A stretch of 32,000 bases of DNA, taken from Nitrososphaera viennensis EN76 (lineage in GTDB: Archaea > Thermoproteota > Nitrososphaeria > Nitrososphaerales > Nitrososphaeraceae). The stretch is from the NCBI RefSeq assembly GCF_000698785.1, contig NZ_CP007536.1:60001-92000 (forward strand), read 5' to 3'. The translations under genes and the position numbers were made by a program. Below, one piece after another: positions 17,542-32,000 of this stretch. The notes under the pieces are model-generated. The model saw nothing but the letters and a program-made list of their open reading frames with translations. It did no database searches and was not told the origin of the DNA. Every line of letters starts with the position of its first letter. Position 1 is the first letter of the stretch.

Positions 17542-18717
17542 TTATCCTGTTGCGCCAGAGTCGCCCGAGCTGCTCCCTGTATCATTGCTGCCTGAGCCGG
17601 ATCCGCTAGCGCCGGAACTGCCTGATTCACCAGAATTTGCACTGCTTGAATCGGATGGGCTTGCGGCACCCGAGTCGCTAGCACTCGAATCAGAACTGGC
17701 AGAGCCTCCACCTGCTGCGCTATCGCCGGATGAGCTGCTTCCCGCATCACCAGAGTTTGTGCCAGATGAAGATGAATCAGAGCTGTTCGAATCGTCTGGA
17801 CTCGTGCTATCTGAAGAATCCGATGGGCTCGTATTGTTTGAATCGCTAGAACTAGACTCCGAGCTGGCAGCAGGATTGTTGTCACTTGGGGAAGAACTGC
17901 TATCGCCGGAACCGCCCGCTCCATCTTCTGAGTTTGGCTGCTCGCTTCCGGGCTGCGATGCCTGTTCGCCAGAAGCCTGCTGTTGCTCTCCATTGCTTTC
18001 TGTTCTTGGCTGCTGTTGTTCTGCTGGAGGGGCTTCAGGGCTCTGTTCGCTCGGCTGTTCAACTGGCGAAGCTGCTGGCTGCTGAGGCTGTTGTGAAGGC
18101 GGTATTTCTACTGGCGCCTGCGATGTTACGAACACTATTTCGGCATGGTTGTTGCCCGGGTTGGCGTCTTCTGTTATCGAGGACGCGTCTGCCGTGATTA
18201 TTGCCTGCTGGTCCGGCTGCAAAGGCGTCGCATCGATGGTTATGCGCGCCTCGCCGCCAGACTCGATGGTGCCAAGGTAGCATTCGATTATGCCTCTGGC
18301 CTGGTCCGTGCATTGGGCCCCGTCGATAAAGTTCACACGGAATAACGACATCTGGTAATAGGTTGACAGCTTGACCCCTACTGCGCTGTCAGGCCCTGCG
18401 TTTCGTGCCACCAGGCTGATGAGCGTCGTCTGGCCCGACTGGCCGCTAGACAGGTCTATTGAAAGAGAAGTTTCCGAAGCCTTGGCCACTACTATCTGGC
18501 TTGGCGATGATGCAGACGCGCCCTGCTGCTGCATCTTCAGGTCGTTGATCTGCGACTGCAGCGAGTCCGTCTTGGTCTGGAGCTCTCCGATTGCCTCCCA
18601 GATTGCCCTGAAAGGATTGGTGGAAGAGTCGTCGGCAAAGGCAAACGAGCCCTGCGATATGGTTGCGCCTATGATAAAAGCAAGCACAACAAAAGCTATA
18701 GGCTTGTTTAGCTTCAC
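17542..18717 (-). CDS. secreted DUF11-like repeat-domain protein with a long Ser/Gly/Asp-rich tail
   Basis: Signal peptide MKLNKPIAFVVLAFIIGATISQGSFAFA. Coiled-coil segment. DUF11-like core NAGPDSAVGVKL...CYLGTIESGGEARITI...DANPGNNHA. The last roughly 190 aa are low complexity. Confidence 0.8.
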   Translation of the reverse strand: MKLNKPIAFVVLAFIIGATISQGSFAFADDSSTNPFRAIWEAIGELQTKTDSLQSQINDLKMQQQGASASSPSQIVVAKASETSLSIDLSSGQSGQTTLISLVARNAGPDSAVGVKLSTYYQMSLFRVNFIDGAQCTDQARGIIECYLGTIESGGEARITIDATPLQPDQQAIITADASSITEDANPGNNHAEIVFVTSQAPVEIPPSQQPQQPAASPVEQPSEQSPEAPPAEQQQPRTESNGEQQQASGEQASQPGSEQPNSEDGAGGSGDSSSSPSDNNPAASSESSSSDSNNTSPSDSSDSTSPDDSNSSDSSSSGTNSGDAGSSSSGDSAAGGGSASSDSSASDSGAASPSDSSSANSGESGSSGASGSGSGSNDTGSSSGDSGATG

Positions 18718-18736
18718 ACCTGTATAATGGAGTGGT

Positions 18737-18764
18737 TATTATTTAAATCTATCTTTAAATCTTA
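18737..18764 (-). promoter_or_regulatory. two-box promoter of 17542..18717
   Basis: Gene-sense AAGATTTAAAGATAGATTTAAATAATAA. AAATAATA ends 19 nt before the GTG start. Confidence 0.65.
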
Positions 18765-19559
18765 GGGTGTCTTTGTGCCTACGAACAGGCAATGAGGCGC
18801 GCCGGTTGCCCTGCATCTGGTCTCTGTGACGCGCCAGCTTCCGCCCATCGAGTGCGCTGCTGCAGCTGCCAGTGCTCCTGCCACAAAGTCGTCCACCGGC
18901 GCCTTCTCTGCCACCACCTCTTCTGCCAGGATAGAGTCGTACCACGCGACTTCGATCGCGTTTTCTTCCATGGCGATTATCTCGAACCTCCCCCATCCCT
19001 TCAGCTTCCACAGCAGCAGGAACGATTCGATAAAGTCGCTCTGCGTCTTTTTTGCGACTTCGTCGACCAGCTTGTTGACCTCGTTTGCATAGTCCTTGCC
19101 CCACTCGTAAAAGAACGCGTGCACTTCCGTGCCGATTATTGATTTTGTGTATTTGTACAGGTTTGACAGCATGGAAGTCGGCATGACCATGACGCGCTTG
19201 CCGTCTGCCTCAAAGAGCCTGTTGTTTTCCTCAAGGAGCGACACCGCGTAGTCTTTAAATGTCGCTTCCTCGTCCGACTCGCCTATCTTGTCTGCAAGTA
19301 TGCCCGCCCTGTCCGACTGGCTCACAAGCTTCCACAGCTTGGCGACTCCGACCTTGCGGCTGGTGATGATGCCGTCCACCTTGAGCATCGACAAATACTT
19401 GGACATGGCGCCCTGCGTGATGCCTACGAGTTCTGCGATCCTGGCTCCCGTGAGCCCTTCCGGGTGGCCGTCGAGGACCTTGGCTACTTCTTCCTTGATA
19501 AAACCATAGTCCTGCCATCTTCGCCTGGATTGGGCATTCTCTGCATCTGAACTCTGCAC
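18762..19559 (-). CDS. HTH + V4R-domain transcriptional regulator
   Basis: 265-aa ORF. wHTH LTGARIAELVGITQGAMSKYLSMLKVDGIITSRKVG. C-terminal V4R-like GWGRFEI...FVAGALAAAAAHSMGGSWRVTETRCRATGAPHCLF. Confidence 0.85.
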   Translation of the reverse strand: MQSSDAENAQSRRRWQDYGFIKEEVAKVLDGHPEGLTGARIAELVGITQGAMSKYLSMLKVDGIITSRKVGVAKLWKLVSQSDRAGILADKIGESDEEATFKDYAVSLLEENNRLFEADGKRVMVMPTSMLSNLYKYTKSIIGTEVHAFFYEWGKDYANEVNKLVDEVAKKTQSDFIESFLLLWKLKGWGRFEIIAMEENAIEVAWYDSILAEEVVAEKAPVDDFVAGALAAAAAHSMGGSWRVTETRCRATGAPHCLFVGTKTP

Positions 19560-19567
19560 GTCGGTCG

Positions 19568-19589
19568 TATTAAATATAGATTTAAATCC
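19568..19589 (-). promoter_or_regulatory. promoter of the V4R regulator gene (variant of the island motif)
   Basis: Gene-sense GGATTTAAATCTATATTTAATAC. ATTTAAAT ends 20 nt before the GTG start. Confidence 0.5.
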
Positions 19590-19666
19590 TTTTTAAGAGT
19601 TTGCCTTTAAATTCGTGTACAAGAGCAGTATTGGTGTCATCTCAAGCTGCCTGACTGGCAATTATG

Positions 19667-19858
19667 CTAGGTGCTTCCCTTCAAGCCGAGGTTTTCGTTC
19701 AGGTCTAGCGTAAGATTCTTGCCTGTACTTGTAGGTGGCAGGGTGTCGTCGCTGTTGTTGCCGTCCTGCTGGCTTGGGACAAGAGCTATCGCGCCTATAA
19801 TCGCAGCTACTGCTATTATGCCTGCGACAACCAGCGCGATCGTCAAGCTCTTTTGCAT
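19667..19858 (-). CDS. small membrane protein
   Basis: 63-aa ORF with an N-terminal TM (LTIALVVAGIIAVAAIIGAIALV). Single TATA box tttttaaataac upstream. Confidence 0.5.
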   Translation of the reverse strand: MQKSLTIALVVAGIIAVAAIIGAIALVPSQQDGNNSDDTLPPTSTGKNLTLDLNENLGLKGST

Positions 19859-19909
19859 CGTGCAGGCTGCGCCTCTTTGTTATTTAAAAATATGCTGAAA
19901 CAAATTTTG

Positions 19910-19930
19910 AAAAAGAAAATAAGGAAAAAA
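19910..19930 (-). terminator. oligo-T terminator downstream of 19956..20528
   Basis: The minus strand reads cccttttttccttattttctttttc, starting about 25 nt after the stop codon. Confidence 0.55.
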
Positions 19931-19955
19931 GGGAGACCCGGGCTTTAACTCGTTT

Positions 19956-20528
19956 TTATGACAGAGTTATTGTCCAGGTGATTGTCAGTTGGTCGCCGCT
20001 TGCCAGGCTCACTGCAGTAAAGGTGTTCTCGGCCATCATTGTTCCGCCGGATGAAGCGGTGAAGAGGCCTGCCTTCTGGACGTTGGTGTGTGTTGCAGAT
20101 GCAGTGAATGTGTTGGAGACGGTGAATGTGTTGGTTCCAGAAGTATGTGCATATGTTCCGCTGGCCCTTGCAAGGCCACCAGAAGTGATCTCGCTTGCCA
20201 GTGTTGTATCAGTTGCGGCCGGGGCTGTGCCATCGGTTGTCAGTGCAATGTAGTGTGCGCCTTCTGATGCAAGGCCTGTTGATGCGCCGATCTGCTGTGC
20301 AATAAAGTCCTTGCCTGCGTTGGTGATCAGGTTGTGATCCTCGCTGTGGTAGATTTCCTGACCGTCCCTTGTCACGCTAACAACGACGTAACCGTGAGGA
20401 GTCAGGCCATCGGTGGTGACGTTTTGAGCTCCAACAAGAGCAGAACTGGGAATCACAAAGACCATCAGTGCGGCCAGTGCGATGCCAGGTACTGCACCCA
20501 TCAGGAGGCTCTTGTTTGGCTGTGCCAT
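19956..20528 (-). CDS. membrane-anchored/secreted beta-rich protein, paralogue A (TWTITLS family)
   Basis: 190-aa ORF. N-terminal hydrophobic segment. Shares NLI..AG, YIAL, T.L.SE.T.G, GG.M.A..TF and GD.LT.TWTITLS with 21184..21774. Confidence 0.75.
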   Translation of the reverse strand: MAQPNKSLLMGAVPGIALAALMVFVIPSSALVGAQNVTTDGLTPHGYVVVSVTRDGQEIYHSEDHNLITNAGKDFIAQQIGASTGLASEGAHYIALTTDGTAPAATDTTLASEITSGGLARASGTYAHTSGTNTFTVSNTFTASATHTNVQKAGLFTASSGGTMMAENTFTAVSLASGDQLTITWTITLS

Positions 20529-20546
20529 ACCACCCCTTAGAACTCT

Positions 20547-20573
20547 CTATTATTTAAATCTACTTTTAAATTA
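20547..20573 (-). promoter_or_regulatory. two-box promoter of 19956..20528
   Basis: Gene-sense TAATTTAAAAGTAGATTTAAATAATAG. AAATAATA ends 19 nt before the ATG. Confidence 0.65.
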
Positions 20574-20630
20574 TAGAAGGAAAGACTGTAGTATCTGTAT
20601 ATGGGGACAGACGCTTATAAAGTCCGTGCA

Positions 20631-21074
20631 TTACCCTTCTACTTCAAACATTTTTGTGACGTGCGCTTCCCTGTTGTCGACGAGGTCCTTGAACGTGATG
20701 TCGACGGTGTACGCGCCAGCTTTTCCCATGACTTCGCTTCCATAGTCAAACGACCGAGTAAAGTTGTACTGGCCGTGCGTGATGGTCATGAACCTGCAGT
20801 CGTCTACCTTTTTGTAGTACGACGCGCGCTGGCCGTCTTGCATAGCTTCAACTTCTAGCGAATGGCAGTTGGAGCCATACCCGTTTGCAGTAACTGCAAA
20901 GTTTGCAGTTTCTCCTGCTGCGTATTTCTCCTTCAGGCCGTCAACCTGCAGCGCAATCGGAGTAAAGTACGGTACGGCGATCACGTGCGTCTGCGCAAGC
21001 GCGACAAACATCGCAAATACTGCTGCGGCAGCTCCTCCTACTGCTGCAATTGCATGTTGCCTTGTCCGCGACAT
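20631..21074 (-). CDS. membrane-anchored small protein
   Basis: 147-aa ORF. N-terminal TM AIAAVGGAAAAVFAMFVALA, then a beta-rich domain. Single TATA-like aaattaaatagg upstream. Confidence 0.68.
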   Translation of the reverse strand: MSRTRQHAIAAVGGAAAAVFAMFVALAQTHVIAVPYFTPIALQVDGLKEKYAAGETANFAVTANGYGSNCHSLEVEAMQDGQRASYYKKVDDCRFMTITHGQYNFTRSFDYGSEVMGKAGAYTVDITFKDLVDNREAHVTKMFEVEG

Positions 21075-21137
21075 CGATCTTCAAGCGCTCCCGCCTATTT
21101 AATTTCCTTACTTGTTAATTACGGGTAATTCGCATAT

Positions 21138-21165
21138 GGAATTTAAATATAGATTTAAATAATAC
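21138..21165 (+). promoter_or_regulatory. two-box promoter of 21184..21774
   Basis: GGAATTTAAATATAGATTTAAATAATAC. AAATAATA ends 19 nt before the GTG start. Confidence 0.65.
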
Positions 21166-21183
21166 GAGTTTCTTTTACAGGGC

Positions 21184-21774
21184 GTGAACCGCAGGCTTGT
21201 GCCTATTGTAGCGGCTGCCGGTATTTCAATGATTGTGATAGGGTTTGCCCTGCCGGCGATCGCAAGCATAGTCGCAGGCGGGCGGCAAGCGACAGAAGGT
21301 CTAGGCCTCCGGGGAAACGTGGACATGATCCTGTACGACCAGTCCGGAAACGTCAAGGACGAGCGCCACATCGACAACCTCATCGTAAGCGCCGGGGTGG
21401 AAGGCGTGGCCTCAAGAATCGCGCCACATGATGGCTCTGTAAACCCTACTGCGCCGTACAACTATATCGCGCTAGGCACAAGCAACACCGCAGTTGACGC
21501 AAGCCAGACTGCACTTTCTGCAGAGCTTACAACCGGTGCAAACTATGCGCGCATACAGGACGGAACAGCGATATACTCGACGGCGTCCGGCAACAAGCTC
21601 ATCCTTTCAGTGACGTTTGGGCCTGGGCAGGCCACGGGCACGCTGCGTGAAAGCGGCATCTTTAATTCTGCAACCGGCGGCAACATGCTTGCAAGGCAGA
21701 CCTTTGCAGACATTCAAAAGGCCGCCGGCGACACGCTGACGGTCACCTGGACTATTACGTTAAGCCCGACCTAG
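21184..21774 (+). CDS. membrane-anchored/secreted beta-rich protein, paralogue B (TWTITLS family)
   Basis: 196-aa ORF. N-terminal hydrophobic segment VPIVAAAGISMIVIGFALPAIASIV. The C-terminal TLTVTWTITLSPT matches paralogue A. Confidence 0.75.
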   Translation: MNRRLVPIVAAAGISMIVIGFALPAIASIVAGGRQATEGLGLRGNVDMILYDQSGNVKDERHIDNLIVSAGVEGVASRIAPHDGSVNPTAPYNYIALGTSNTAVDASQTALSAELTTGANYARIQDGTAIYSTASGNKLILSVTFGPGQATGTLRESGIFNSATGGNMLARQTFADIQKAAGDTLTVTWTITLSPT

Positions 21775-21793
21775 CCCTTGAATCTGCTGTATG

Positions 21794-21828
21794 TTTTTGC
21801 TGCGTAAAACGTCCTGCAGACTTTTTTT
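21794..21828 (+). terminator. oligo-T terminator region
   Basis: T5 at 21794-21798 and T7 at 21822-21828, 20-50 nt after the stop of 21184..21774. A short cgtcc/ggacg stem flanks the T7 run. Confidence 0.5.
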
Positions 21829-21993
21829 GCGGACGCGTTGACAGCATCATATGATTTACAGCCGGCAGCCGTCGACTTCTTAAGCTTGCCTTCTAGAATC
21901 TTGTTACTGGGCTATTCTTCTCGTATGATAGCTCTATAGAATTTTTACTCCTTTTTGGGAGACCTGTTTTCCATTATCACTAAATTTAAGGAC

Positions 21994-22020
21994 AGATTTA
22001 AACATACATTTAAATAATAA
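21994..22020 (+). promoter_or_regulatory. two-box promoter of 22039..26082
   Basis: AGATTTAAACATACATTTAAATAATAA. AAATAATA ends 19 nt before the GTG start. A third AAATTTAAG box lies at 21982-21990. Confidence 0.65.
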
Positions 22021-22038
22021 CTTCTATACGGAATACCC

Positions 22039-25000
22039 GTGACTATGGCCACGGCCGACGGTACAAGAAGAAGCTACGCCACAAAGACGGTATCCGTGAT
22101 GGTACTTGCAATTCTTGCAACTTCTGCATTTACTACAATAATTCCCGGTGCGGCTTTTGCCGTGACCGACCCGTCTGCGTCGATGAACCTGTGGTCGCCA
22201 CACTCTGACACGGGCAACGATGGCACCCCGACCAGCACGTTCACCTTCTCTGCTGACGCCACGGCAAGCGCAGGCCTGCAGAGGATAGAATGGGACTTTG
22301 ACGGCGACGGCGCCGCGGACACCACGACTCCGATTTCCGGCGCACCCAACCACGTCAATGGCGTGACTGCGACTCATATCTATGGCGACGAGAATGTTTT
22401 CTGGCCGCAGGTAAGATCCGTCGACATGAACAACGCTGTCTCTGACTGGAACAGGTACAGCGTTGGCGGAAGCGACGTTCCACTTGACGTTTTCTGGCCG
22501 CCGCCCATGATAACGATGCTTGCATGGCAGCCATTTACTGCAGACATTGGCACGCCAATTACATTTTCAGCTACTGCCTTTAACGAAGTGGGCGTGCAGC
22601 AATTCCACTGGGACTTTGACGGCGACGGAGAGGCAGATGATGCTACCCCTGCAGTGCCATTTGGTGCCCAGGATGCTTCTGGATCCATAACCCATACGTA
22701 CACTGGCGCAATCTCTGCATTTCCTGCTGTGAGGGCCCTTGACAACGACGGCTTTGTGTCCGAATGGGACGTGTACGACATCAACGGCCAGCCAGTCCAG
22801 ATAGTGATCGGGAGCTCTTCTGTGCCGACGGCAACCATGAACCAGTGGAATCCCTATTCAGCTTCTGGCTTTGACGGCCTTCCGAACACTTCGTTTACAT
22901 TTTCTGCGTCAGGCACTGGCGACGCTGGCATCGCCCGCGTCGAGTGGGACTTTAACGGCGACGGCGTCGTCGACGAGACGACTCCCATAAGCGGGTCTCC
23001 TACTTCTGTCAATGGCATAACCGCCACACACGTTTACAATAATGCTGGCCAATGGACGCCGCAGGTGAGGGTAGTAGATGTCAACAACCTTCCGTCTCCG
23101 TGGGCGGCCTTTATGGTGAGCGGGTCGCCAGTCAGCCTTGATACCTCCGCACCCATGATGAATCCTGTTCTGACCTTTTTGCCCCGCGCGCCTTCTGACA
23201 TTGGATCCGACGGCAACACTGCGACCGTCTTTACATTCACAACGACATTTAGCAACGTGCCTGTGAGCTTCAAGTGGGACTTTAACGGCGACGGTGTGAC
23301 CGACGCGACAACGACGCAGCCTACCGCAACTCACACCTATCCTGCCGCCGGCTCATACCTGCCGACCGTTACGGTGGTAGACGAGTGGGGAACAACAGAG
23401 CTGGCCTACCCGCTCAATTCTTCCGGCCAGTGGGAAGACGTGGATGTATCGCCGATGGCCCCGACCGCGACCATGAACCAGTGGAGCCCGTACAGCGCTT
23501 CAAGCGCCGACGGAGACAAGAACACCGTCTTTACGCTATCTGCAGACGCCACCGCGCCCGGCGGAATCGCCAGTCTTGAATGGGACTTTAACAGCGACGG
23601 AACCGTCGATATAACAACACCGGTCTCTGGCGCTCCGCAGTCCGTGACTGCCGTTACTGCGACGTACGTTTACGGCGCAGATGGAAATTACACTCCCAAG
23701 GTCAGGGCAGTGGACACGACAGGCCAGACCTCAGCGTGGGACGCTTACAACATTGCCCTCGTGACGCCCGTGCTTGATGTCGTGACGCCAGCGCCAGTAG
23801 CCACGATGAACCAGTGGTCGCCGTTTACGTCAACTGGACCCGACGGCTATACCACTACAACCTTTACACTTTCTGCCAACGCGACTTCCGTCGTCGGCAT
23901 CGACAGGCTCGAATGGGACTTTGACGGAAACGGCAGCGTGGACGCTACAACTGACTTTAATGGAGAAACTTCCGTATCAAGCGCAACCAAGACCCACGTC
24001 TACGGCGCGGTAGGAAGCTATACTCCAAAGGTGAGGACTGTCGACACTGACGGCCAATCCTCCGCATGGGACGCCTACAACTCGGGCTCGACAGTTCCGA
24101 CGCTTGACGTCGCTACCTCGCCTGCAAACAGCGCGCCTGTGGCAAACGCAGGCCCGGACCAGACGGTGGTCCTTGGAAGCACGGTGACGCTTGACGGCAC
24201 TGGAAGCAGCGACCCTGACTCTGGCGACACGCTGACATACACCTGGTCGCAGAACTCTGGCCCGATATCAGTCGCGCTAAACACTGCAAACCCTGCCAAG
24301 CCGACGTTTACGGCGACGCCCGCCGGAACGTACGTGTTTGAGCTGAAGGTCAAGGACAGCATTGGTGCACAGAGCACACCGGACACCATCGTGGTGACAG
24401 TCGTGAGCGCGCCCGTGGCCACGCTAGGCCAGTGGAGCCCGTACTCGGCGTCCGGCCCTGACGGCACATCTGCAACAGTCTTTACATTCTCGGCTAACGC
24501 TTCTGCCTCTGCAGGCATTGCGCGCCTTGAATGGGACTTTGACGGAAACGGCAGCGTGGACGCAACATCTGCGATAACCGGCGCTCCGACCACCGTAACC
24601 GGCGCAACCAAGACCTTTACTTACGGCGCCGACGGCACTTATACTCCAAAGGTGCGCGCGGTGGATGCGGGCAACAACTTGTCTGCATGGGACGCGTTCA
24701 ACTTGGGAAGCACGATAATCCAGCTTGACGTGGCAACACCGCAGCAGACAGGCGACCTGTACTGCAACGGCAAGACGATCGAGCAGCTGATCGCATCGCA
24801 CCAGTACAACGTGATTGACAAGAGGAACACTGGTGCCGTCAATATTTACGGGACAAGCGGAAACGACCTGATACTTGGCAACAACCTCTCTAACTACATC
24901 GACGGCAAGGGTGGCGACGACTGCATAATCGCCTTTGGAGGCGACGACACAGTTTATGACTATAACGGCGACAGCAGCAACGGCGGCACGGACTGGCTCT

Positions 25001-26147: not shown

Positions 26148-26302
26148 TGTGCGTGTGATTTCTATTGTTGTTGAACTACTACTATCTCTCTGCCCTTGGC
26201 GTGCTTGAAAGATGCCTATTCCCTGCTCGGCATAAAGTATCTTTTTATGTAATATGCGACTATAATCTTCGATTGGGACGGCGGGATTCTGTTCACAATG
26301 CA

Positions 26303-28171
26303 ATGTCACTGGCGCTTTGCATAACGACCGCCCTTACGCTCCTCTTTTCTATCCTTGCTATCCTGCCGTCGCAGGTGGTGACGGCGGCTTCCGGCCCTAC
26401 TGTGTCGATGAAAATATGGTCTCCCGGCCCGGGCGTGATAAGCGTGGGCACTCCAGTCACTTTCCGGGCGACCGGCGCAGACGACATTGCCGTGCAGGGA
26501 TTCCAGTGGGACTTTGACGGCGACGGGGAGGCCGACGCCTACTCGCCTGCCGACTCGCCGGGCAGGTCTGCGTCAGGGTCCATAGCGCGCACGTTTTCTG
26601 TGCCCATGACTAGCTATCCCGCAGTGAGGACAGTCGACAATGAAGGGTTTGTTTCAGAATGGGACGTTTACGACGTAAACGGCTCGCCGGTCCAGCTCGT
26701 GATAGGGAGCTCTGCGCCTCCCAAGGTGACGATGAACCGGTGGAGCCCGTACTCTACAGCAGGACCCGACGGCTCGCCGGCTACTCAATTTACGCTCTCT
26801 GCAAGCGCGTCGTCGGATGAGGGGCTGGCAAAACTGGAATGGGACTTTGACGGCGACGGCAAGGCCGATGCAACATCGGAGGTCTCTGGCAAGGCAATTG
26901 CCTCGGCCACGATTGCCCATGTGTACGGCTCTCCCGGCTCGTGGGTTCCAAGGGTAAGGGCAGTCGACGTAAACGGCCTGCCGTCGCTATGGGCTGCGTA
27001 CACTGCCGGGGCAAAACAGGCGACAACAGCAATAACACTGGACGTGGCGATTTCCGAGCTTGCGGCCACCCTGAAATTCTCTCAGGTGGGCGCGCCGGCA
27101 AGCACTGGCGCGAACGGCGCGCCTTCCGCAACGTACGCGTTTAGCGCAACTTCAAGCGCAAACGCAACAAGCTATGAATGGGACTTTGACGGCGACGGCA
27201 AGATCGACGCGACCACCAGCACTCCGGCGACCCAGCATACCTACAGAAAATATGGGCTGTTCCTGCCCACGGTAACTGTCAAGGACGCGTTTGGCACGCG
27301 CGCACTTGCGCTGCCCCTCGATGCAAATGGCAAGCCGGCGTACATTGGCGTGCTCGGCGAGGCGCCAGTTGCACGCATGGGCCAGTGGTCTCCATTCTCT
27401 GCAAAAGACCCCGACGGCCAGGCTAACACTGTATTTGTGTTCTCTGCACGCGCGTCAGCGCAGGGCGGCGTGCAAAAGTTCGAGTGGGACTTTGACGGAG
27501 ACGGCACGGTTGACGCGACCACCACTATCGAGGGCGCGCCAACATCTGCAACTGCGTCTGCAACCCATACTTTTGGCAAGGAAGGAAGCTATACTCCAAA
27601 GGTGAGGGCAGTGGACGCGACAAACCAGGTATCGTCTTGGGCTTCTTACGGTGGCGCTGTCCAGCTTGACATAACATCCGGCCAACCCGCGCAGCCAGCA
27701 ACAGAGAAACCCTCGGCAGAAAAATATTGCGATGGCATGACGATCGAGCAATTGATGGCAAGCGGCAAGTACCACGTTGTCGACAAGAGAAACTCGGTCC
27801 AAAAGACAATATTTGGGACGACCGGCGCGGACCTGATAATCGGCTCTGGCGTACAAAACGCGATATACGGCCGGGGTGGCAATGACTGCATAATTACGGG
27901 CGGCGGAAACGACTATGTCTTTGGTAACGAAGGCAACGACATAATTTTCGGCAGCGATGAAAGCGACACTATAGACGGCGGGCCTGGCGATGACCTGATT
28001 TATGGCATGGCCGGCGACGACAGCATCAAAGCAGGTGCAGGCAATGACAAGGTAAACGGCGGTCTTGGCAACGACACGATCGACGGCGGCGCGGGCAGCG
28101 ACTGGTGCTATGGCGGAGGAGGCGGCAACGACAAAGCTGTCAACTGCGAAACTTCCACGCCGTTTGACTGA
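26303..28171 (+). CDS. secreted PKD-repeat / RTX-repeat protein, paralogue of 22039..26082
   Basis: Track ORF 26165..28171. The likely start is ATG 26303 (MSLALCITTALTLLFSILAILPSQVVTAAS signal). Five PKD-like modules, then KYCDGMTIEQLMASGKYHVVDKRN and GGxGxD repeats ending in NCE. Confidence 0.88.
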   Translation: MSLALCITTALTLLFSILAILPSQVVTAASGPTVSMKIWSPGPGVISVGTPVTFRATGADDIAVQGFQWDFDGDGEADAYSPADSPGRSASGSIARTFSVPMTSYPAVRTVDNEGFVSEWDVYDVNGSPVQLVIGSSAPPKVTMNRWSPYSTAGPDGSPATQFTLSASASSDEGLAKLEWDFDGDGKADATSEVSGKAIASATIAHVYGSPGSWVPRVRAVDVNGLPSLWAAYTAGAKQATTAITLDVAISELAATLKFSQVGAPASTGANGAPSATYAFSATSSANATSYEWDFDGDGKIDATTSTPATQHTYRKYGLFLPTVTVKDAFGTRALALPLDANGKPAYIGVLGEAPVARMGQWSPFSAKDPDGQANTVFVFSARASAQGGVQKFEWDFDGDGTVDATTTIEGAPTSATASATHTFGKEGSYTPKVRAVDATNQVSSWASYGGAVQLDITSGQPAQPATEKPSAEKYCDGMTIEQLMASGKYHVVDKRNSVQKTIFGTTGADLIIGSGVQNAIYGRGGNDCIITGGGNDYVFGNEGNDIIFGSDESDTIDGGPGDDLIYGMAGDDSIKAGAGNDKVNGGLGNDTIDGGAGSDWCYGGGGGNDKAVNCETSTPFD

Positions 28172-28195
28172 CAAGCTTTCTTGTCTAATCTTTTT
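28170..28195 (+). terminator. hairpin + T5 terminator
   Basis: gacaag-cttt-cttgtc perfect 6-bp stem (28170-28185), followed by taatcttttt. Confidence 0.55.
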
Positions 28196-28272
28196 CTATA
28201 AGCAGATACGTTAAGAGCACGTTTATGCCCTTTTTCGGGAAAAACAAGCGTGCTACGCAAGGATTTCAGACT

Positions 28273-28299
28273 AGATTTAAACATAAATTTAAATAATAA
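28273..28299 (+). promoter_or_regulatory. two-box promoter of the open-ended giant ORF
   Basis: AGATTTAAACATAAATTTAAATAATAA, differing at 1 of 27 positions from the 21994 box. AAATAATA ends 20 nt before GTG 28319. Confidence 0.65.
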
Positions 28300-28318
28300 G
28301 GCACTATAACCCTATAGC

Positions 28319-31300
28319 GTGTCGGAGAGAGCCCTTGGAGGCTACTATCATAGTATGCCTTTCCCTAGGTCTCTCTCCGGCGGCATGAAGGACAGGTCGC
28401 TACTCCTTTTCTGTGGCCTGGCAGCCGCTGCGGCGCTGTTTCTGACCGTGTCAAACACGGGTCAGGCTTTTGCAGAGCTCTCTCCAACACACCTGCAAGA
28501 CGCCGCCGCAAGTGCTACTGCTGTCGACCACGCGCCACGCGCTTTCTCTAGGAGCATCGGCGACTCGGTCTCGGTGGCAAGCAACTTTGACAACCTGGGG
28601 GCGAGAATCCCGCGCGTATTCAACGTAGGGATCTCTGACGGCCTCAACATCGCGACCTCGCCAACGCCGCCTCCGCCCAGCAGCGCCGCTACTAATACTA
28701 CAACAACTGCAAGGCCGTCGACAGGCTTGCAGCAAGGGATGGGAAGGGCAGAAGAAAAGCTGGGCCCCCGCAACCCGATTGAAAGTAAGGGCGACCCGAC
28801 GAGCAAGGACCCGAAGGACAGTTCGGTGCAGGAGCAGCCGCAGGGCTCTATCTCGCAGGAACTGGAATCAGTGCTTTCAACTCTGATGCAGGACCTGCTG
28901 GGATCTGACGATTCCGAGCCGGACGATAGTAGTAGTTCCAACAATACTGCTGCGGTACAGGTCCCTCCGACCATCTACATTGACTCGCTCTATGGAGCAT
29001 ACGCCATGGCCATCATCGTAATCTCGGTTGGCAAGTCACCACGCGTTGCAAGAGTTAGGAGGCAGATCGTGGCACTTTACGCACTCGAGTCGCCAGAGGA
29101 CAAACAGCGCGACGCGGAAATGCCAATGTATGCAAGGGTTGCAATCATTGTCATCGTGATTGTGGCGGCAGTCGCGATGGCGTCTGCAGTAGAACCTGTG
29201 ATGGGCGAGGCATTTGCCGATACGAACAAGGCTGCAATCGTATACATCGAAGGTTCAACACCAAAGTATAGAGAATGGATACCTTCAGCTGGAGGTGGTG
29301 GTTCCTGGAGCAGTCCGGTGTCACTAACTGCAGCAGACACTACACTCAACACGGCAAAGATAGAGTTCAGCCCTGTATCGTCAAAGAGAGTGATCGTAAC
29401 AATGGATAACAATGGCAACCTCGATTCGTACGTCTGTTCCATTGGATGTACGGATGCAAGCAGCTGGACCTTCACCAACAACTTTGTGGATGTAACAGCT
29501 TCAACGGTCACTGCTTCCTATAGGCCGTGGGACATCGAATACGAGCATACAAGTGGCGACCTTATGATAGTTTACGACTATCCAGAAAGTGGGTCAAGTG
29601 CTACAGACGATCTATTCTACAGGATCATGACTAACTCACAAACATCCTTTGGCTCTGAATCTTCTATCAACGATTCTGGCAACTCTGCAACCGCCGGACT
29701 CTATTCCTTTGTGGCCATGGATTCGCAAAAGACATCTGGATCTGATGAAATGGCGCTCATTGCAGTTGACGCCACTGCTTCAGACGCGTCTGCTATCGTC
29801 TGGAACGGAAACAATTGGACAACTCTGCCACAAACAGAACTCAGTACAAGCGTTAGCATCGCTACAGAAGAAGCAGTAGCAATAGCATACGAGACAAACT
29901 CGGGTGACATTTTGGTGGTAGCAGGTGAAGGCTCTAACATTAGGTACAATACATTTTCCAACACCTCGAATACTTGGGGGACAAGTTCTACGTCGGCTGG
30001 AACTTGGGCTGTTGGTACCATAAATTGGGTTAGGCTCGTCCCTGACCCACGTAGTACTTCAAACGCGATATTTCTAGCAGGCTCAGGATCTTCTAACGAC
30101 CTTGATTCTGCATACTGGAGCGGAAGCGCATGGACCGATCACGCTGAGCACGATGCGGGAATCTCTGGTAACGCAGCACGCGTCTTTGACTTTGCATGGG
30201 ATGGCAGCAGCTCTAACGGCGTACTTGCGTGGTCCACGGCTTCAAACAGCATATCATTTACAAGAGGAGATCCGTCGTCTGGAACATTCGGCACCGATGG
30301 CACATTCACCGTAGATGCAGACGCTTCTACTACTTCGTGGATTAGACTTGCCTCCAATCCAACTACTGCTGATACAGTTGCAGCCTTGGGTCTTGAAGAC
30401 GATGGCAATAGTGACATTGGTGGCATCCGGTGGGACGGAAGTACAAATGCTCCTGTTTCAACTGGAACCGATGACATTTCGACTACTTCGACCAATAACA
30501 GTTGGGAGCCATTCAGCATAGACTTTCAAAAGGTGGTAGCAATAGCAACAAAGAACATTTCAGATACCATTGCGACAAGCCCTAGCATCGTCGCGGCCAA
30601 GTTCAAGGTAGCATCCATACCCCAAACCATAACAATAACTCCAACAATAGTCAAGAAAGTCACGCGCTCGCTTCCAAACACAGTAACAGTAAGTGATTCT
30701 ATTGCAAGGTCGGTCACCGTAACGCCTGACACCACCCCGGCGGCCATGGCTTACAGGTCTGACGACGGAACCAACGGAAGCAGCTCGCCCAAGTACAGAG
30801 AGTGGAACCCGACGACAAAGACGTGGGGCTCGCAGGTAGAGCTTGAAAGCGCGGGCAGCCCCATACGCAACGCCTGGATAGAGTTCAGCCCTGTGTCGAC
30901 CAAGCGCGTGATAATCGTGCTGAGCGAAGACGGCACGCTAGACTCGTACGCCTGCGACTTTGGCTGCACCATTCCGAGCAGCTGGACAGTCACGCACGAC
31001 ATCGTGGACCTGTGGAACGTCGTCACGCCTGCCGCGCAAAAGCGCCCGTTTGACATCGAGTTTGAAAAGACAAGCGGCGACCTGATGCTAGTTTATGACA
31101 AGGAGGACGGAGGCGACCCTGCCACCGACCTGTTCTACAGGATAATGCCCGACTCTAGCCACACGTTTGGAAGCGAGAGCGTCATTGACGACACTGACAC
31201 TGCCGCTCCTGACAACGTGTACAGTTTCATCCGCCTCGACTCTAGGAGGACCCCCGGCTCTAACGACCTTGGCTTGGTGGCAGAATCAGAGACCAACCAC

Positions 31301-32000
31301 CGCGCAGTGGCCTGGTACTGGAACGGCTCCACTGACACGTTTGGCAACATGATCACACTCACGACATCTGTTTCCACCGACGTCGACTATGAGGGAGTCG
31401 GCATAGGCTTTGAAACAAGCACAGGCGACCTCGTCGCTGTGGCCGCGGAAGGCGCAAACGTGGTGTACGCGCAGTTCAGCGGCGGCTCGTGGAGTACGCC
31501 GGCAAACGTCGGGACGCTCAACGTGAGCACTGTAAGGTGGGTGCGGTTTGTGCCAAACCCCAACGCCGGCACTGACGGCATACAGCTTGTCGTGAGCGGC
31601 TACACCGGCAGCGCGCACCAGCTCAACAGCGCGTACTGGAACGCAACAGGATGGAAGATTCACGCCGGCGAGACCCGGCACGACGCCTCAATCGACGATT
31701 CTGCGACCAGAGTGTTTGACTTTGCATGGGACAACGCCGGCGACGCGACTAGGGGCATACTGGTGTGGGGAAACGGCAACAACAACATGGTGTTCAAGAG
31801 GTACACTGTGCCTGACACGTGGACAACGATAGACTTTGGCGCCGGCGCCATCAGCGACGACGGCACGCACCCGTGGGTCTCGCTCAACGAGCACGGCAAC
31901 CCGATATCTGCCGACGCGGTGTCAGTGCTCGGAGCCGCGATCGACAACGGCGCAGACATAGGTCAGCTCCGCTGGGATGGAAGTGCCAGCAGTGTGGCTT
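28319..32000 (+). CDS. giant secreted/membrane protein with tandem beta-propeller-like modules (5' partial; continues past the window end)
   Basis: Not in the supplied track. A stop (taa) at 28307-28309 opens the frame. I translated the frame (codon starts congruent to 2 mod 3) line by line to 32000 and met no stop, giving at least 1227 codons. Candidate starts are GTG 28319, ATG 28355 and ATG 28385 (MKDRSLLLFCGLAAAAALFLTVSNTGQAFA). All minus-strand track ORFs here look like shadows. Confidence 0.82.
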   Translation, partial: MSERALGGYYHSMPFPRSLSGGMKDRSLLLFCGLAAAAALFLTVSNTGQAFAELSPTHLQDAAASATAVDHAPRAFSRSIGDSVSVASNFDNLGARIPRVFNVGISDGLNIATSPTPPPPSSAATNTTTTARPSTGLQQGMGRAEEKLGPRNPIESKGDPTSKDPKDSSVQEQPQGSISQELESVLSTLMQDLLGSDDSEPDDSSSSNNTAAVQVPPTIYIDSLYGAYAMAIIVISVGKSPRVARVRRQIVALYALESPEDKQRDAEMPMYARVAIIVIVIVAAVAMASAVEPVMGEAFADTNKAAIVYIEGSTPKYREWIPSAGGGGSWSSPVSLTAADTTLNTAKIEFSPVSSKRVIVTMDNNGNLDSYVCSIGCTDASSWTFTNNFVDVTASTVTASYRPWDIEYEHTSGDLMIVYDYPESGSSATDDLFYRIMTNSQTSFGSESSINDSGNSATAGLYSFVAMDSQKTSGSDEMALIAVDATASDASAIVWNGNNWTTLPQTELSTSVSIATEEAVAIAYETNSGDILVVAGEGSNIRYNTFSNTSNTWGTSSTSAGTWAVGTINWVRLVPDPRSTSNAIFLAGSGSSNDLDSAYWSGSAWTDHAEHDAGISGNAARVFDFAWDGSSSNGVLAWSTASNSISFTRGDPSSGTFGTDGTFTVDADASTTSWIRLASNPTTADTVAALGLEDDGNSDIGGIRWDGSTNAPVSTGTDDISTTSTNNSWEPFSIDFQKVVAIATKNISDTIATSPSIVAAKFKVASIPQTITITPTIVKKVTRSLPNTVTVSDSIARSVTVTPDTTPAAMAYRSDDGTNGSSSPKYREWNPTTKTWGSQVELESAGSPIRNAWIEFSPVSTKRVIIVLSEDGTLDSYACDFGCTIPSSWTVTHDIVDLWNVVTPAAQKRPFDIEFEKTSGDLMLVYDKEDGGDPATDLFYRIMPDSSHTFGSESVIDDTDTAAPDNVYSFIRLDSRRTPGSNDLGLVAESETNHRAVAWYWNGSTDTFGNMITLTTSVSTDVDYEGVGIGFETSTGDLVAVAAEGANVVYAQFSGGSWSTPANVGTLNVSTVRWVRFVPNPNAGTDGIQLVVSGYTGSAHQLNSAYWNATGWKIHAGETRHDASIDDSATRVFDFAWDNAGDATRGILVWGNGNNNMVFKRYTVPDTWTTIDFGAGAISDDGTHPWVSLNEHGNPISADAVSVLGAAIDNGADIGQLRWDGSASSVA
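29231..32000 (+). repeat. tandem 503-aa-period coding modules (propeller-like unit + TV/I-rich linker)
   Basis: Unit 1 spans 29231-30532 and unit 2 starts at 30740. Collinear matches include PKYREW, IEFSPVS.KRVI, LDSY.C..GC...SSWT, RP.DIE.E.TSGDLM.VYD, DLFYRIM, FGSES.I.D, RVFDFAWD and (I/L)RWDGS. Confidence 0.8.

What the first reader, a model, noticed from the sequence alone, without database searches (positions are those of the whole stretch)
17542..32000. Promoter-linked island of secreted and surface proteins with its own regulator: candidate undescribed archaeal cell-surface system
At least nine consecutive genes over more than 14 kb encode proteins with signal peptides or N-terminal anchors:
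- a DUF11-like protein with an S/G/D tail
- a 63-aa TM protein
- two 190/196-aa paralogues flanking a 147-aa anchored protein
- a 1347-aa and a 622-aa PKD+RTX protein
- a propeller-repeat protein of more than 1200 aa

An HTH-V4R regulator is embedded among them. Five of the genes carry the same two-box promoter at identical spacing from the start codon. Several signal peptides end in the same AFA motif. No enzyme, transporter or known pilus/archaellum gene is present. The functional logic (adhesin array, matrix or sheath, cell-cell contact apparatus) is not explained by any system I can name.
Basis: partly seen in the sequence, partly recalled or inferred. Interest (0 to 1): 0.8.

Follow-up and report, generated by a model that had tools for sequence, protein, structure and literature searches.

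The report
Known Nitrososphaera biofilm adhesin regulon
This stretch of the soil ammonia-oxidising archaeon Nitrososphaera viennensis is a real, co-regulated cluster of secreted adhesion proteins driven by a shared double-box promoter, but both the cluster and the promoter motif have already been published, so only details are new.

Summary
Window 17542-32000 is N. viennensis EN76, genes NVIE_000940-001020. It has eight exported or anchored proteins and one HTH-V4R regulator. A 24-nt double box, ATTTAAANNTANATTTAAATAATA, lies 19-20 nt before the start codons of five genes. A shifted, degenerate copy precedes the regulator.

It is not undescribed. Reyes et al. 2020 published this motif, its constant spacing, its conservation in two sister species and NVIE_000950 as candidate repressor. 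Dreer et al. 2025 published the cluster as a biofilm-induced "adhesion region".

What I add:
- All eight known motif-bearing transcription units in N. viennensis are biofilm-induced (log2FC 2.4-6.1). Motif-less cluster genes are not (≤1.64).
- The exact 24-mer occurs in 27 stretches from Nitrososphaeraceae MAGs. About 39 of 46 copies lie 18-21 nt upstream of homologues of the same families, including unlinked copies.
- The spacing fits leaderless mRNAs.
- The 190/196-aa paralogues share a domain with virus tail fibres. The 190-aa one ranks fourth in biofilm expression.
- The giant protein carries lectin-like β-propellers.
- A conserved adjacent M10 protease contradicts "no enzyme".

Verdict: already known; modest residual interest.

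The parts
16793..17533 (+). G0 = NVIE_000930, secreted or anchored M10 (matrixin) zinc metalloprotease. It is a conserved neighbour but lacks the motif and is not biofilm-induced. The TTG start is uncertain.
   Evidence: Pfam Peptidase_M10 4.3e-14, HELGHALGLSH motif. It neighbours G1 or lies in the cluster in L001, L002, L036, L044, L045, L063, L069 and L089. Biofilm log2FC +0.78, not significant. Cu-limitation log2FC +3.20.
17542..18717 (-). G1 = NVIE_000940. Signal peptide, a short predicted coiled coil (by eye), a DUF11 domain and a long S/G/D-rich tail.
   Evidence: Pfam DUF11 3.8e-8. Biofilm log2FC 5.88. Homologues follow the motif in 13 copies in other genomes.
18737..18760 (-). Two-box promoter of G1, 19 nt before the GTG start.
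   Evidence: The orthologous sites are kept in L001 and L002.
18762..19559 (-). G2 = NVIE_000950, winged-HTH + V4R regulator with MsvR-like architecture.
   Evidence: Pfam V4R 7.1e-13. NCBIfam MsvR 5.9e-11, 42.5 bits against a cut-off of 220. Always found next to G1. The HTH is nearly invariant, and H147, C249 and C257 are invariant. Biofilm log2FC 2.42.
19564..19587 (-). Shifted, degenerate two-box at the G2 promoter, 4 nt before the GTG. Box 1 sits where a TATA box for a leaderless G2 transcript would be.
   Evidence: The same 8-nt gap after the 20-mer is seen in L001 and L002.
19667..19858 (-). G3 = NVIE_000960, 63-aa single-TM protein with a single-box promoter.
   Evidence: Biofilm log2FC 0.87. 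A 60-68-aa gene occupies the same position in L001 and L002.
19956..20528 (-). G4 = NVIE_000970 (arCOG11426). Exported protein with a virus-tail-fibre-like beta-sandwich domain.
   Evidence: Pfam Gp80 2.1e-6, phrog_5417 1.4e-22. AF2 model pLDDT 83. Structural match to the HFTV1 tail, PDB 9h4p, E 1.4e-5. 43 viral structural matches. Biofilm TPM 28590, rank 4, log2FC 4.41.
20548..20571 (-). Two-box promoter of G4, 19 nt before the ATG.
20631..21074 (-). G5 = NVIE_000980, 147-aa N-terminally anchored protein with two Cys. It matches no family and has its own single TATA-like box.
   Evidence: No Pfam, NCBIfam, PHROG or PADLOC hit. Conserved next to G6 in 14 of the loci searched (15 with the overlapping L002/L032 stretches counted separately). 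Biofilm log2FC 0.27, not significant.
21141..21164 (+). Two-box promoter of G6, 19 nt before the GTG. It is near-palindromic and lies in the divergent G5/G6 intergenic region.
21184..21774 (+). G6 = NVIE_000990 (arCOG11426), paralogue of G4.
   Evidence: phrog_5417 6.7e-27, phrog_4176 'tail fiber protein' 1.7e-11. Biofilm log2FC 3.36.
21984..22019 (+). Promoter of G7. Three boxes at 12-bp spacing; the last 24 nt are the two-box motif, 19 nt before the GTG.
22039..26082 (+). G7 = NVIE_001000, 1347-aa protein with PKD-like repeats and two RTX Ca2+-binding blocks, and an N-terminal signal peptide.
   Evidence: HemolysinCabind 5e-38, PKD_4 7e-36. Biofilm log2FC 4.98. Most down-regulated gene under Cu limitation, log2FC -3.51.
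26303..28171 (+). G8 = NVIE_001010, 622-aa PKD + RTX protein with no motif of its own.
   Evidence: Biofilm log2FC 1.64. Cu-limitation log2FC +0.87.
28275..28298 (+). Two-box promoter of G9, 20 nt before GTG 28319.
   Evidence: The same arrangement is seen in L001 and L008.
28319..32000 (+). G9 = NVIE_001020, a giant adhesin that runs off the window. It has a signal peptide, a low-complexity region, a hydrophobic hairpin and then repeated ~430-aa beta-propeller modules.
   Evidence: Two modules 44% identical. AF2 model pLDDT 83, pTM 0.88. The best PDB matches are 7-bladed Photorhabdus fucose lectins, E 1e-10. Biofilm log2FC 5.22.

Best explanation
This is the already-published biofilm/adhesion regulon of Nitrososphaera viennensis, NVIE_000940-001020.

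**Shown**
- A set of exported surface proteins is transcribed from promoters built of two identical 8-bp palindromes (ATTTAAAT) 12 bp apart.
- The proteins are a DUF11 protein, two virus-fibre-like 190/196-aa proteins, a PKD+RTX Ca2+-binding protein and a multi-propeller giant.
- These promoters switch on together in biofilm and go down together under Cu limitation.
- The same promoter-to-gene-family pairing is conserved across Nitrososphaeraceae, including at unlinked loci.

**Inferred**
- The downstream box is the TATA box. The fixed 19-20 nt to the start codon places the transcription start at the start codon, giving leaderless mRNAs.
- The embedded winged-HTH/V4R protein G2 binds the box pair as a dimer. 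At target promoters the pair spans about -43 to -24 and covers the TATA box, so G2 would act as a repressor.
- At G2's own promoter the pair is shifted to about -28 to -9 and its second box is degenerate. That would give weaker autorepression.
- A signal sensed by the V4R domain (invariant His/Cys/Cys) releases G2 during surface growth.
- The products then coat the cell. G4/G6 and the G9 propellers act as glycan-binding adhesins. G7 acts as a Ca2+-stiffened PKD stalk. G1 acts as an aggregation factor.
- The adjacent M10 protease, regulated in the opposite direction under Cu limitation, may shed or trim these proteins.
For: **Identity**
- G4 is 100% identical to an N. viennensis protein. G6 and G8 match AIC14280 and AIC14282.

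**Published expression**
- Biofilm versus planktonic log2FC: G1 5.88, G2 2.42, G4 4.41, G6 3.36, G7 4.98, G9 5.22.
- Motif-less genes: G0 0.78, G3 0.87, G5 0.27, G8 1.64.
- Flanking genes: about -0.05 to 0.8.
- The motif-bearing genes elsewhere in the genome, as listed by Reyes et al., are also biofilm-induced: NVIE_019740/019730 at 5.82/6.09 and NVIE_005310 at 3.76, with its neighbours at -0.2 and -0.4.
- Under Cu limitation the motif genes fall by 1.1 to 3.5 log2 units (G2 falls only 0.34, not significant), while M10 rises by 3.2.

**Cis-element**
- 13 hits against 0.03 expected, all inside the island.
- Orthologous sites are kept in N. evergladensis and in a MAG.
- The exact 24-mer gives 103 stretches among 185,579 species genomes, and 27 of them are from Nitrososphaeraceae MAGs. 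There, about 39 of 46 copies precede G1, G4, G6, G7 or G9 homologues at 18-21 nt.
- Solo G4 copies at unlinked loci keep the motif (L004/L017, L029, L050, L072).

**Regulator**
- G2 is adjacent to G1 in every locus that covers the region.
- Its HTH is nearly invariant, in parallel with the invariant DNA boxes, and H147, C249 and C257 are invariant.
- Its architecture is MsvR-like.
- Its own promoter carries the shifted box pair in three species.

**Protein folds**.
Against: - No binding, footprint or transcription-start data exist. The leaderless model and the repressor model rest on geometry only.
- G2 changes little itself: 2.4 log2 units in biofilm and not significantly under Cu limitation.
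- Other candidate regulators are not excluded. These are the motif-bearing Lrp NVIE_005310, the ArsR NVIE_014280 proposed by Reyes and a biofilm-induced TFB, NVIE_012290.
- An activator bound at the upstream box would fit the data equally well.
- Secretion, localisation, oligomeric state and any glycan binding are predictions. The propeller and fibre similarities are at fold level only (12% and 24% identity).
- The M10 'shedding' idea rests only on synteny and one opposite expression change.
- The N. viennensis genome itself could not be scanned here. Motif sites outside the window are taken from Reyes et al.
Confidence: 0.7

Rival explanations
1. This is a copper-responsive surface-remodelling regulon, as Reyes et al. 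2020 read it. NVIE_000950 would be an ArsR-type metal-sensing repressor that leaves the DNA when Cu is bound. The cluster would then track Cu availability rather than attachment.
For: The motif genes are among the top down-regulated genes under Cu limitation, with NVIE_001000 at -3.51. G2 has an ArsR-like HTH hit (NF033788, 6.3e-5). It also has an invariant His/Cys/Cys triad that could bind a metal.
Against: In biofilm, the Cu-acquisition genes that mark Cu limitation are strongly up: MCO4b NVIE_019250 is the top gene in both data sets, and copC/D also rises. Yet the adhesion regulon goes up in biofilm, not down. A simple Cu switch predicts the opposite. Cu-limited cultures were also growth-inhibited, so the drop may be indirect.
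Confidence: 0.2
2. The double box is read by a different factor, not by G2. Candidates are the motif-bearing Lrp regulator NVIE_005310 and an alternative TFB that prefers a TATA-like upstream element. G2 would then be only a member of the regulon.
For: NVIE_005310 carries the motif and is induced 3.76 log2 units in biofilm. One TFB, NVIE_012290, is up in biofilm, and N. viennensis has five TFBs. The upstream box lies at about -43 to -36, a typical archaeal activator position (from general knowledge).
Against: G2 is the only regulator syntenic with the regulon in every genome examined. The invariance of its HTH mirrors that of the boxes. None of the genome stretches recovered here showed an Lrp gene beside the cluster.
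Confidence: 0.25
3. The island is a degraded provirus or other mobile element. NCBI's name for G4, 'phage tail fiber protein', would then reflect a viral origin for the whole region.
For: G4 and G6 hit Pfam Gp80, phrog_5417 and phrog_4176 (tail fibre) and many viral structures.
Against: The region has no capsid, portal, terminase, integrase or tRNA-flank features. It is syntenic among species, sits between housekeeping genes and shows no GC anomaly. G4 is among the most highly expressed cellular genes. There are no PADLOC hits.
Confidence: 0.03
4. The clustering is chance, and the shared sequence is just the generic strong archaeal TATA box.
For: TTTAAATA is a common archaeal TATA sequence, and the organism's intergenic DNA is AT-rich.
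Against: There are 13 hits against 0.03 expected in shuffles, and none in the other 17.5 kb. Motif-less neighbours G3 and G5 have single TATA-like boxes and are not induced. The full 24-mer precedes the same gene families across many species.
Confidence: 0.01

Closest known systems
N. viennensis 'adhesion region' NVIE_000940-001020 (Dreer et al. 2025, PMC12448741) and the Cu-down-regulated promoter motif (Reyes et al. 2020, PMC7785015)
   Same: It is the same locus, the same genes and the same 24-27-nt motif. The same candidate regulator, NVIE_000950, was already named, and conservation in N. evergladensis and N. gargensis was already reported.
   Different: Dreer et al. do not use the words 'motif' or 'promoter' in their main text, so the motif was not tied there to biofilm induction. 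The following are not in those texts as I read them: the virus-fibre homology of arCOG11426, the propeller fold of NVIE_001020, the leaderless geometry, the spread to many Nitrososphaeraceae MAGs including unlinked copies, and the opposite behaviour of the M10 protease.
Bacterial RTX/Lap-type biofilm adhesins (LapA with LapG protease and LapD, secreted by a type I system); from general knowledge
   Same: Both have large repetitive Ig/PKD-like stalks with Ca2+-binding RTX nonapeptides, are used for surface attachment, and have a protease gene nearby that could release the adhesin.
   Different: Here the proteins have N-terminal Sec-type signals rather than a C-terminal T1SS signal. No ABC/MFP/OMP secretion genes lie nearby. 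The protease is an M10 metzincin, not a LapG cysteine protease. There is no c-di-GMP receptor. The host is an archaeon with an S-layer.
MsvR (redox-sensitive winged-HTH + V4R regulator of methanogens)
   Same: G2 has the same two-domain architecture over nearly its full length (NF053755 aligned 35-260 to 26-235 of 236, E 5.9e-11). It has cysteines in the V4R domain. It has a site in its own promoter, and operator positions overlap the core promoter.
   Different: The score is far below the equivalog cut-off (42.5 against 220 bits). The DNA boxes are A/T palindromes, whereas the MsvR boxes I recall are TTCGN7-9CGAA (from memory, not tested). The target genes are adhesins, not oxidative-stress genes.
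Virus tail-fibre or baseplate modules: Pfam PF23140 (podophage GP4 fibre I gp80), phrog_5417 and phrog_4176, and the HFTV1 tail (PDB 9h4p)
   Same: The ~140-aa beta-sandwich domain of G4 and G6 matches at both sequence and fold level. Hits include haloarchaeal tailed viruses and lipothrixviruses.
   Different: G4 and G6 are short, stand-alone cellular proteins with an N-terminal export signal. They have no fibre shaft or baseplate-attachment part, are encoded in a conserved chromosomal regulon and are very highly expressed. Trimerisation and ligand are unknown.
DUF11 aggregation protein of Methanothermobacter sp. CaT2 (cited by Dreer et al.)
   Same: G1 carries a DUF11 domain and is induced when cells attach or aggregate.
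   Different: G1 has a single DUF11 domain plus a long S/G/D-rich tail. Orthology was not tested.
Seven-bladed beta-propeller lectins of Photorhabdus (PLL/PHL)
   Same: They are the best structural matches to a G9 module (E about 1e-10, TM 0.5-0.68).
   Different: Sequence identity is only about 12%, and many unrelated propellers also match (745 hits at E ≤ 1e-3). Sugar-binding residues were not examined. The G9 modules are about 100 aa longer and are arrayed in a giant anchored protein.

Membership tests
Published N. viennensis adhesion/Cu-responsive regulon (NVIE_000940-001020) | Sequence identity to N. viennensis EN76 genes in the same order | tested here: met
   G4 is 100% identical. G6 is AIC14280 and G8 is AIC14282/WP_075053526. 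The annotation order in the published tables matches the ORF order.
Published N. viennensis adhesion/Cu-responsive regulon (NVIE_000940-001020) | Motif RATTTAAABATAGATTTAAATAATAAS upstream of member genes | tested here: met
   Searches compared.
RTX adhesins secreted by a type I system (LapA-like) | RTX nonapeptide Ca2+-binding repeats | tested here: met
   HemolysinCabind 5e-38 for G7 and 1.9e-19 for G8.
RTX adhesins secreted by a type I system (LapA-like) | Linked T1SS genes (ABC transporter, membrane-fusion protein) and no N-terminal signal peptide | tested here: not met
   The window has no transporter genes, nor do L001 and L002. G7 and G8 have N-terminal hydrophobic signal-like segments.
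MsvR regulators | Winged HTH followed by a V4R domain with cysteines | tested here: met
MsvR regulators | Score above the NCBIfam equivalog cut-off | tested here: not met
   42.5 bits against a cut-off of 220.
MsvR regulators | Redox-dependent binding to boxes in its own and target promoters | not testable with these tools
   Needs EMSA or footprinting. Only the presence of boxes in G2's own promoter is shown.
Pfam PF23140 Gp80 / phrog_5417 (virus fibre-type domain) | Profile match above threshold | tested here: met
   G4 scores 28.6 bits against a cut-off of 27. G6 scores 25.2 bits, just below. phrog_5417 gives 1.4e-22 for G4 and 6.7e-27 for G6 over the whole profile.
Pfam PF23140 Gp80 / phrog_5417 (virus fibre-type domain) | Same fold as viral fibre or tail proteins | tested here: met
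   9h4p_BD, E 1.4e-5, probability 1.0. BFVD gives 43 hits at E ≤ 1e-3, the top one with TM 0.70/0.87 and rmsd 2.3 Å.
Pfam PF23140 Gp80 / phrog_5417 (virus fibre-type domain) | Part of a virion (encoded among virus structural genes) | tested here: not met
   The context is chromosomal and conserved, with no viral hallmark genes.
Beta-propeller lectins (PLL/PHL type) | Multi-bladed propeller fold | tested here: met
   AF2 pLDDT 83, pTM 0.88, about 30 strands. Foldseek E 1e-10.
Beta-propeller lectins (PLL/PHL type) | Conserved sugar-binding pockets between blades; measured glycan binding | not tested
   Identity is about 12%. Pocket residues were not compared, and binding needs an experiment.
Matrixin (peptidase M10) | HExxHxxGxxH zinc site and Met-turn | tested here: met
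   HELGHALGLSH followed by SMMYP in the 246-aa ORF. Pfam 4.3e-14.

The most novel reading that the evidence does not exclude
The dominant biofilm-specific surface protein of soil ammonia-oxidising archaea may be an exapted virus receptor-binding (tail-fibre-type) domain. This is G4/NVIE_000970, the fourth most expressed gene in biofilm, together with its paralogue G6. It would be secreted as a glycan-binding adhesin that glues S-layer-coated cells to each other or to surfaces.

It would be switched on with giant propeller and PKD/RTX adhesins by a V4R-HTH repressor. That repressor would occlude a leaderless promoter's TATA box through a twin palindromic box. The neighbouring M10 protease would counteract the adhesins.

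Alternatively, the same domain could block virus receptors on the S-layer in dense biofilms.
Probability: 0.25. Interest if true: 0.6.

Novelty: already known. Interest (0 to 1): 0.3.

Why it matters
Ammonia-oxidising archaea drive soil nitrification and mostly live attached to particles. How they attach is little understood, and they are not yet genetically tractable.

This locus is the clearest candidate for their attachment machinery. Its promoter is so invariant (24 of 24 nt across many species) that it offers a ready handle. It could serve as a reporter or inducible promoter, as bait to fish out the regulator, and as a search key for biofilm genes in metagenomes.

The virus-fibre-like nature of the most expressed member suggests concrete binding experiments. 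None of this makes the finding new. The cluster, the motif and the candidate regulator are already in the literature.

Tried and rejected
- **TasA/ABP-like or type IV pilin identity for G4/G6.** I considered this from memory. No Pfam or NCBIfam hit supports it. The fold search gave only virus-fibre matches, and the N-termini lack a class III signal by eye.
- **Anti-phage defence role.** PADLOC gave no hits apart from weak HTH noise on G2.
- **Provirus or mobile element.** There are no hallmark genes, and the Krupovic et al. iMGE paper gave nothing bearing on this locus.
- **Whole-genome motif scan of N. viennensis.** The genome-contig scan did not return N. viennensis or N. evergladensis records. 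I therefore took extra-cluster sites from Reyes et al..
- **Homologue searches with G9.** Low-complexity words swamped the searches, which gave only 5 and 8 hits. The propeller model therefore rests on a 13-sequence alignment.
- **Profile search of solved structures with the G4 family.** It gave only a marginal hit to a 171-aa 'structural protein' (E 0.006).
- **tblastn of G4 against phage genomes.** It found just two weak hits, both annotated as hypothetical proteins.
- **Identity of the matched HFTV1 chain.** I could not tell from the paper whether the 953-aa chain is the baseplate hub or the fibre protein.

Full report
**1. What is in the sequence**

- G1, 17542-18717(-): 391 aa, DUF11 (Pfam 3.8e-8) with an S/G/D-rich tail.
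- G2, 18762-19559(-): 265 aa, V4R (7e-13) plus a winged HTH. It aligns to NCBIfam MsvR over nearly its whole length at 5.9e-11, but scores 42.5 bits against a cut-off of 220.
- G3, 19667-19858(-): 63 aa with one TM segment.
- G4, 19956-20528(-), 190 aa, and G6, 21184-21774(+), 196 aa: paralogues, 34% identical. They flank G5, 20631-21074(-), 147 aa.
- G7, 22039-26082(+), 1347 aa, and G8, 26303-28171(+), 622 aa: PKD plus RTX repeats.
- G9: runs off the window end and matches no Pfam, NCBIfam or PHROG family.

All except G2 have an N-terminal hydrophobic segment. That makes eight exported proteins inside the stated range, not nine.

The ninth lies just outside, at 16793-17533(+). It is a matrixin-type M10 metalloprotease (Pfam 4.3e-14, HELGHALGLSH). 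So 'no enzyme' is wrong by adjacency.

'AFA' occurs in G1, G7 and G9. I read it as an ordinary AxA signal-peptidase site, from general knowledge.

**2. The promoter**

ATTTAAAN5ATTTAAAT with up to two mismatches gives 13 strand-hits at seven places, against 0.03 expected. All are in the island and none in the first 17.5 kb.

The full 24-mer, ATTTAAANNTANATTTAAATAATA, ends 19 nt before the start codons of G1, G4, G6 and G7. It ends 20 nt before a GTG at 28319 that opens the G9 reading frame. The N-terminal extension this adds to G9 is also present in an orthologue (L008). I therefore take 28319 rather than ATG 28385 as the start of G9.

G2 has a version with a degenerate second box only 4 nt from its GTG. 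That offset is the same in N. evergladensis and in a MAG.

G3 and G5 have single TATA-like boxes, and G8 has none. G7 has a third box a further 12 bp upstream.

**3. Whose genome, and what is already published**

G4 is 100% identical to a protein of Nitrososphaera viennensis. G6 is AIC14280 and G8 is AIC14282.

Two papers from the Schleper laboratory cover this locus.

Reyes et al. 2020 (PMC7785015) reported the following.
- They found 5'-RATTTAAABATAGATTTAAATAATAAS-3' upstream of NVIE_001000, 000940, 000990, 001020 and 019740. These are among the genes most down-regulated under copper limitation.
- Their supplement extends the motif to 000970, and on the opposite strand to 000950 and 000980.
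- It notes the palindromy, and the similar distance to start codons except at 000950.
- It shows conservation in N. evergladensis and N. gargensis.
- It finds one more site at the Lrp gene NVIE_005310.
- It proposes NVIE_000950 (HTH-ArsR + V4R) or NVIE_014280 as a repressor.

Dreer et al. 2025 (PMC12448741) describe NVIE_000940-001020 as an 'adhesion region' highly induced in biofilm.

**4. What the published numbers say when laid over the motif map**

This cross-reading is mine. Dreer's main text does not contain 'motif' or 'promoter'.

Biofilm versus planktonic log2 fold changes, from Dreer's data set:

| Gene | Motif | log2FC |
|---|---|---|
| G1 | yes | 5.88 |
| G2 | yes (shifted, degenerate) | 2.42 |
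| G4 | yes | 4.41 |
| G6 | yes | 3.36 |
| G7 | yes | 4.98 |
| G9 | yes | 5.22 |
| G0 | no | 0.78 (not significant) |
| G3 | no | 0.87 |
| G5 | no | 0.27 (not significant) |
| G8 | no | 1.64 |

- The flanking genes are flat: GT2 0.11, TrmB -0.05, histidine kinase 0.59.
- G4 reaches 28,590 TPM in biofilm and ranks fourth.
- The motif sites outside the cluster behave the same way. NVIE_019740/019730 change by 5.82/6.09. NVIE_005310 changes by 3.76, while its neighbours change by -0.20 and -0.42.
- So all eight motif-bearing transcription units known in this genome are biofilm-induced.
- Under Cu limitation the motif genes fall by 1.1 to 3.5 log2 units, G2 by only 0.34 (not significant). The M10 protease rises by 3.20.
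- MCO4b is the top up-regulated gene both in biofilm and under Cu limitation, yet the adhesin regulon moves in opposite directions in the two conditions. A simple Cu-sensing switch is therefore unlikely. This is inference.

**5. Conservation beyond the published three species**

Gene order is kept in N. evergladensis and in a thermal-spring MAG: giant adhesin(s), 196 aa, 147 aa, 188 aa, 60-68 aa, V4R, DUF11, M10, TrmB. In the MAG, the PKD/RTX pair is replaced by a 2586-aa protein made of G9-type modules.

An exact-match scan of 185,579 species genomes for the 24-mer returned 103 stretches. Of these, 27 come from Nitrososphaera or Nitrososphaeraceae MAGs. In those, about 39 of 46 copies lie 18-21 nt (mostly 19) upstream of a start codon. 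The protein that follows is a BLAST homologue of G1 (13 copies), G4 (12), G6 (8), G7 (1) or G9 (4).

Outside the 24-mer the promoters are not conserved, apart from the start codon at a fixed distance.

In several genomes G4 is missing from the cluster and sits alone elsewhere, still behind the same motif. Examples are L004/L017 with L036, and L072 with L044. In one MAG the PKD/RTX genes lie on another contig beside a further motif-driven gene (L100).

The unit is therefore a regulon defined by its cis-element, not merely a syntenic block. G2 and G1 are adjacent wherever the region is covered.

**6. The proteins**

*G4 and G6.*
- An AlphaFold model of G4 (38-sequence alignment, pLDDT 83) is a beta-sandwich after a disordered or hydrophobic N-terminus.
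- Its only significant PDB match is a 953-residue chain of the Haloferax tailed virus 1 tail (9h4p, E 1.4e-5, 24% identity).
- Against predicted viral structures there are 43 matches at E ≤ 1e-3. They include annotated tail fibres and proteins of haloarchaeal tailed viruses and lipothrixviruses. The top match has TM 0.70/0.87 and rmsd 2.3 Å.
- Sequence profiles agree: Pfam Gp80, phrog_5417 (1.4e-22 and 6.7e-27) and phrog_4176 'tail fiber protein'.
- The family has 377 homologues at E ≤ 1e-3. All those that carry a source name are from Nitrososphaera or related archaea.

*G9.* A G9 module modelled on a shallow 13-sequence alignment gives pLDDT 83 and pTM 0.88. It is an all-beta propeller. Its best PDB neighbours are seven-bladed Photorhabdus fucose lectins (E about 1e-10, about 12% identity), followed by fungal six-bladed lectins and sialidases. 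This confirms 'propeller' and makes glycan binding plausible but unproven.

*G2.* Orthologues are 52-96% identical. The HTH is almost invariant, and H147, C249 and C257 are invariant.

**7. How it most likely works**

*Shown.* A shared, extremely conserved double-box promoter drives a set of exported proteins that switch on together in biofilm.

*Inferred from geometry and general knowledge of archaeal promoters.*
- The downstream box contains the TATA element, TTTAAATA. Its centre lies about 26-27 nt before the start codon, so transcripts should be leaderless.
- The two 8-bp palindromes lie 12 bp apart centre to centre. They look like the two half-sites of a winged-HTH dimer.
- At target promoters that footprint would span about -43 to -24 and cover the TATA box.
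- At G2's own promoter it is shifted to about -28 to -9 and its second half-site is degenerate. This fits a repressor with weaker autorepression. It also fits G2's high basal level and its smaller induction.
- An activator acting from the upstream box is not excluded.
- The V4R His/Cys/Cys triad suggests a metal or redox signal.
- The products would form an adhesive coat. G1 would act as an aggregation factor, the G4/G6 domains and G9 propellers as glycan binders, and G7 as a Ca2+-stiffened stalk.
- The M10 protease may trim or shed these proteins. This is speculative and rests only on synteny and one opposite expression change.

**8. Rivals and verdict**

- A provirus origin is rejected. There are no hallmark genes, the chromosomal context is conserved among housekeeping genes and there is no GC anomaly.
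- A defence role has no support.
- A pure copper regulon is disfavoured by the biofilm data.
- Control by the motif-bearing Lrp, or by an alternative TFB, remains open.

What is new here is incremental:
- the link between the motif and biofilm induction;
- the family-wide spread of the motif, including unlinked copies;
- the leaderless geometry and the corrected G9 start;
- the virus-fibre and propeller-lectin folds;
- the conserved, oppositely regulated protease.

Noticed in passing
window 16793-17533 (+): A secreted or anchored M10 (matrixin) metalloprotease gene, NVIE_000930, is a conserved neighbour of the DUF11 gene across Nitrososphaeraceae. It lacks the two-box motif and is unchanged in biofilm. 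Under Cu limitation it rises 3.2 log2 units while the adhesin genes fall. It may be an adhesin-shedding or processing protease.
   Followed up: partly
window 28319-29250 (+): The G9 reading frame opens at GTG 28319, 20 nt after the motif, not at ATG 28385. After the first signal-like segment and a low-complexity stretch of about 190 aa come two further hydrophobic segments (AYAMAIIVISV and ARVAIIVIVIVAAVAMASAV), separated by an Arg-rich loop. The second segment is followed by another 'EAFAD'. This may be a membrane hairpin anchor.
   Followed up: partly
window 21984-22019 (+): The G7 promoter has three boxes at 12-bp spacing (ATTTAAGG / ATTTAAAC / ATTTAAAT) rather than two. The same arrangement is kept in N. 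evergladensis (L001 8488-8519).
   Followed up: no
window 2001-5000: GC content drops to 0.41-0.48 against about 0.55-0.60 elsewhere. The stretch has only short ORFs, and the one tested (2600-3382) has no Pfam hit. Nature unknown.
   Followed up: no
window 9489-11564 (-): A 691-aa family-2 glycosyltransferase, NVIE_000880, looks processive-type. It lies 6 kb upstream of the island but is not biofilm-induced (log2FC 0.11).
   Followed up: partly
window 5836-7464 (-): A 542-aa ORF has only a sub-threshold Pfam hit, to rotavirus VP6 (E 6e-4, 19 bits against a cut-off of 27). This is probably noise.
   Followed up: no
literature: PMC12448741, main text versus its own data set: The paper's discussion says NVIE_000970 encodes the DUF11 domain. 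Its own tables, and the sequence, show that the DUF11 protein is NVIE_000940. NVIE_000970 is the arCOG11426 virus-fibre-like protein. One of its tables also glosses NVIE_000990, the paralogue, as 'putative glycogen biosynthesis', which nothing here supports.
   Followed up: yes
L004 / L017 (CAYXFY010000001.1), L029, L050, L072: Solo G4-family genes (195-208 aa) sit at unlinked chromosomal sites with the same 24-nt motif 19 nt upstream. Some carry a 9-aa 'VTGTPGAGGDD'-type insertion in a loop (alignment A1).
   Followed up: partly
L030 7518 (+), L100 1145 (-), L042 2254 (+): Motif copies in Nitrososphaera MAGs precede proteins with no BLAST match to the window proteins: a 121-aa TM protein, a protein of more than 367 aa next to PKD/RTX genes, and one at 140 nt distance. 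These may be further regulon members, perhaps counterparts of NVIE_019740/019730.
   Followed up: no
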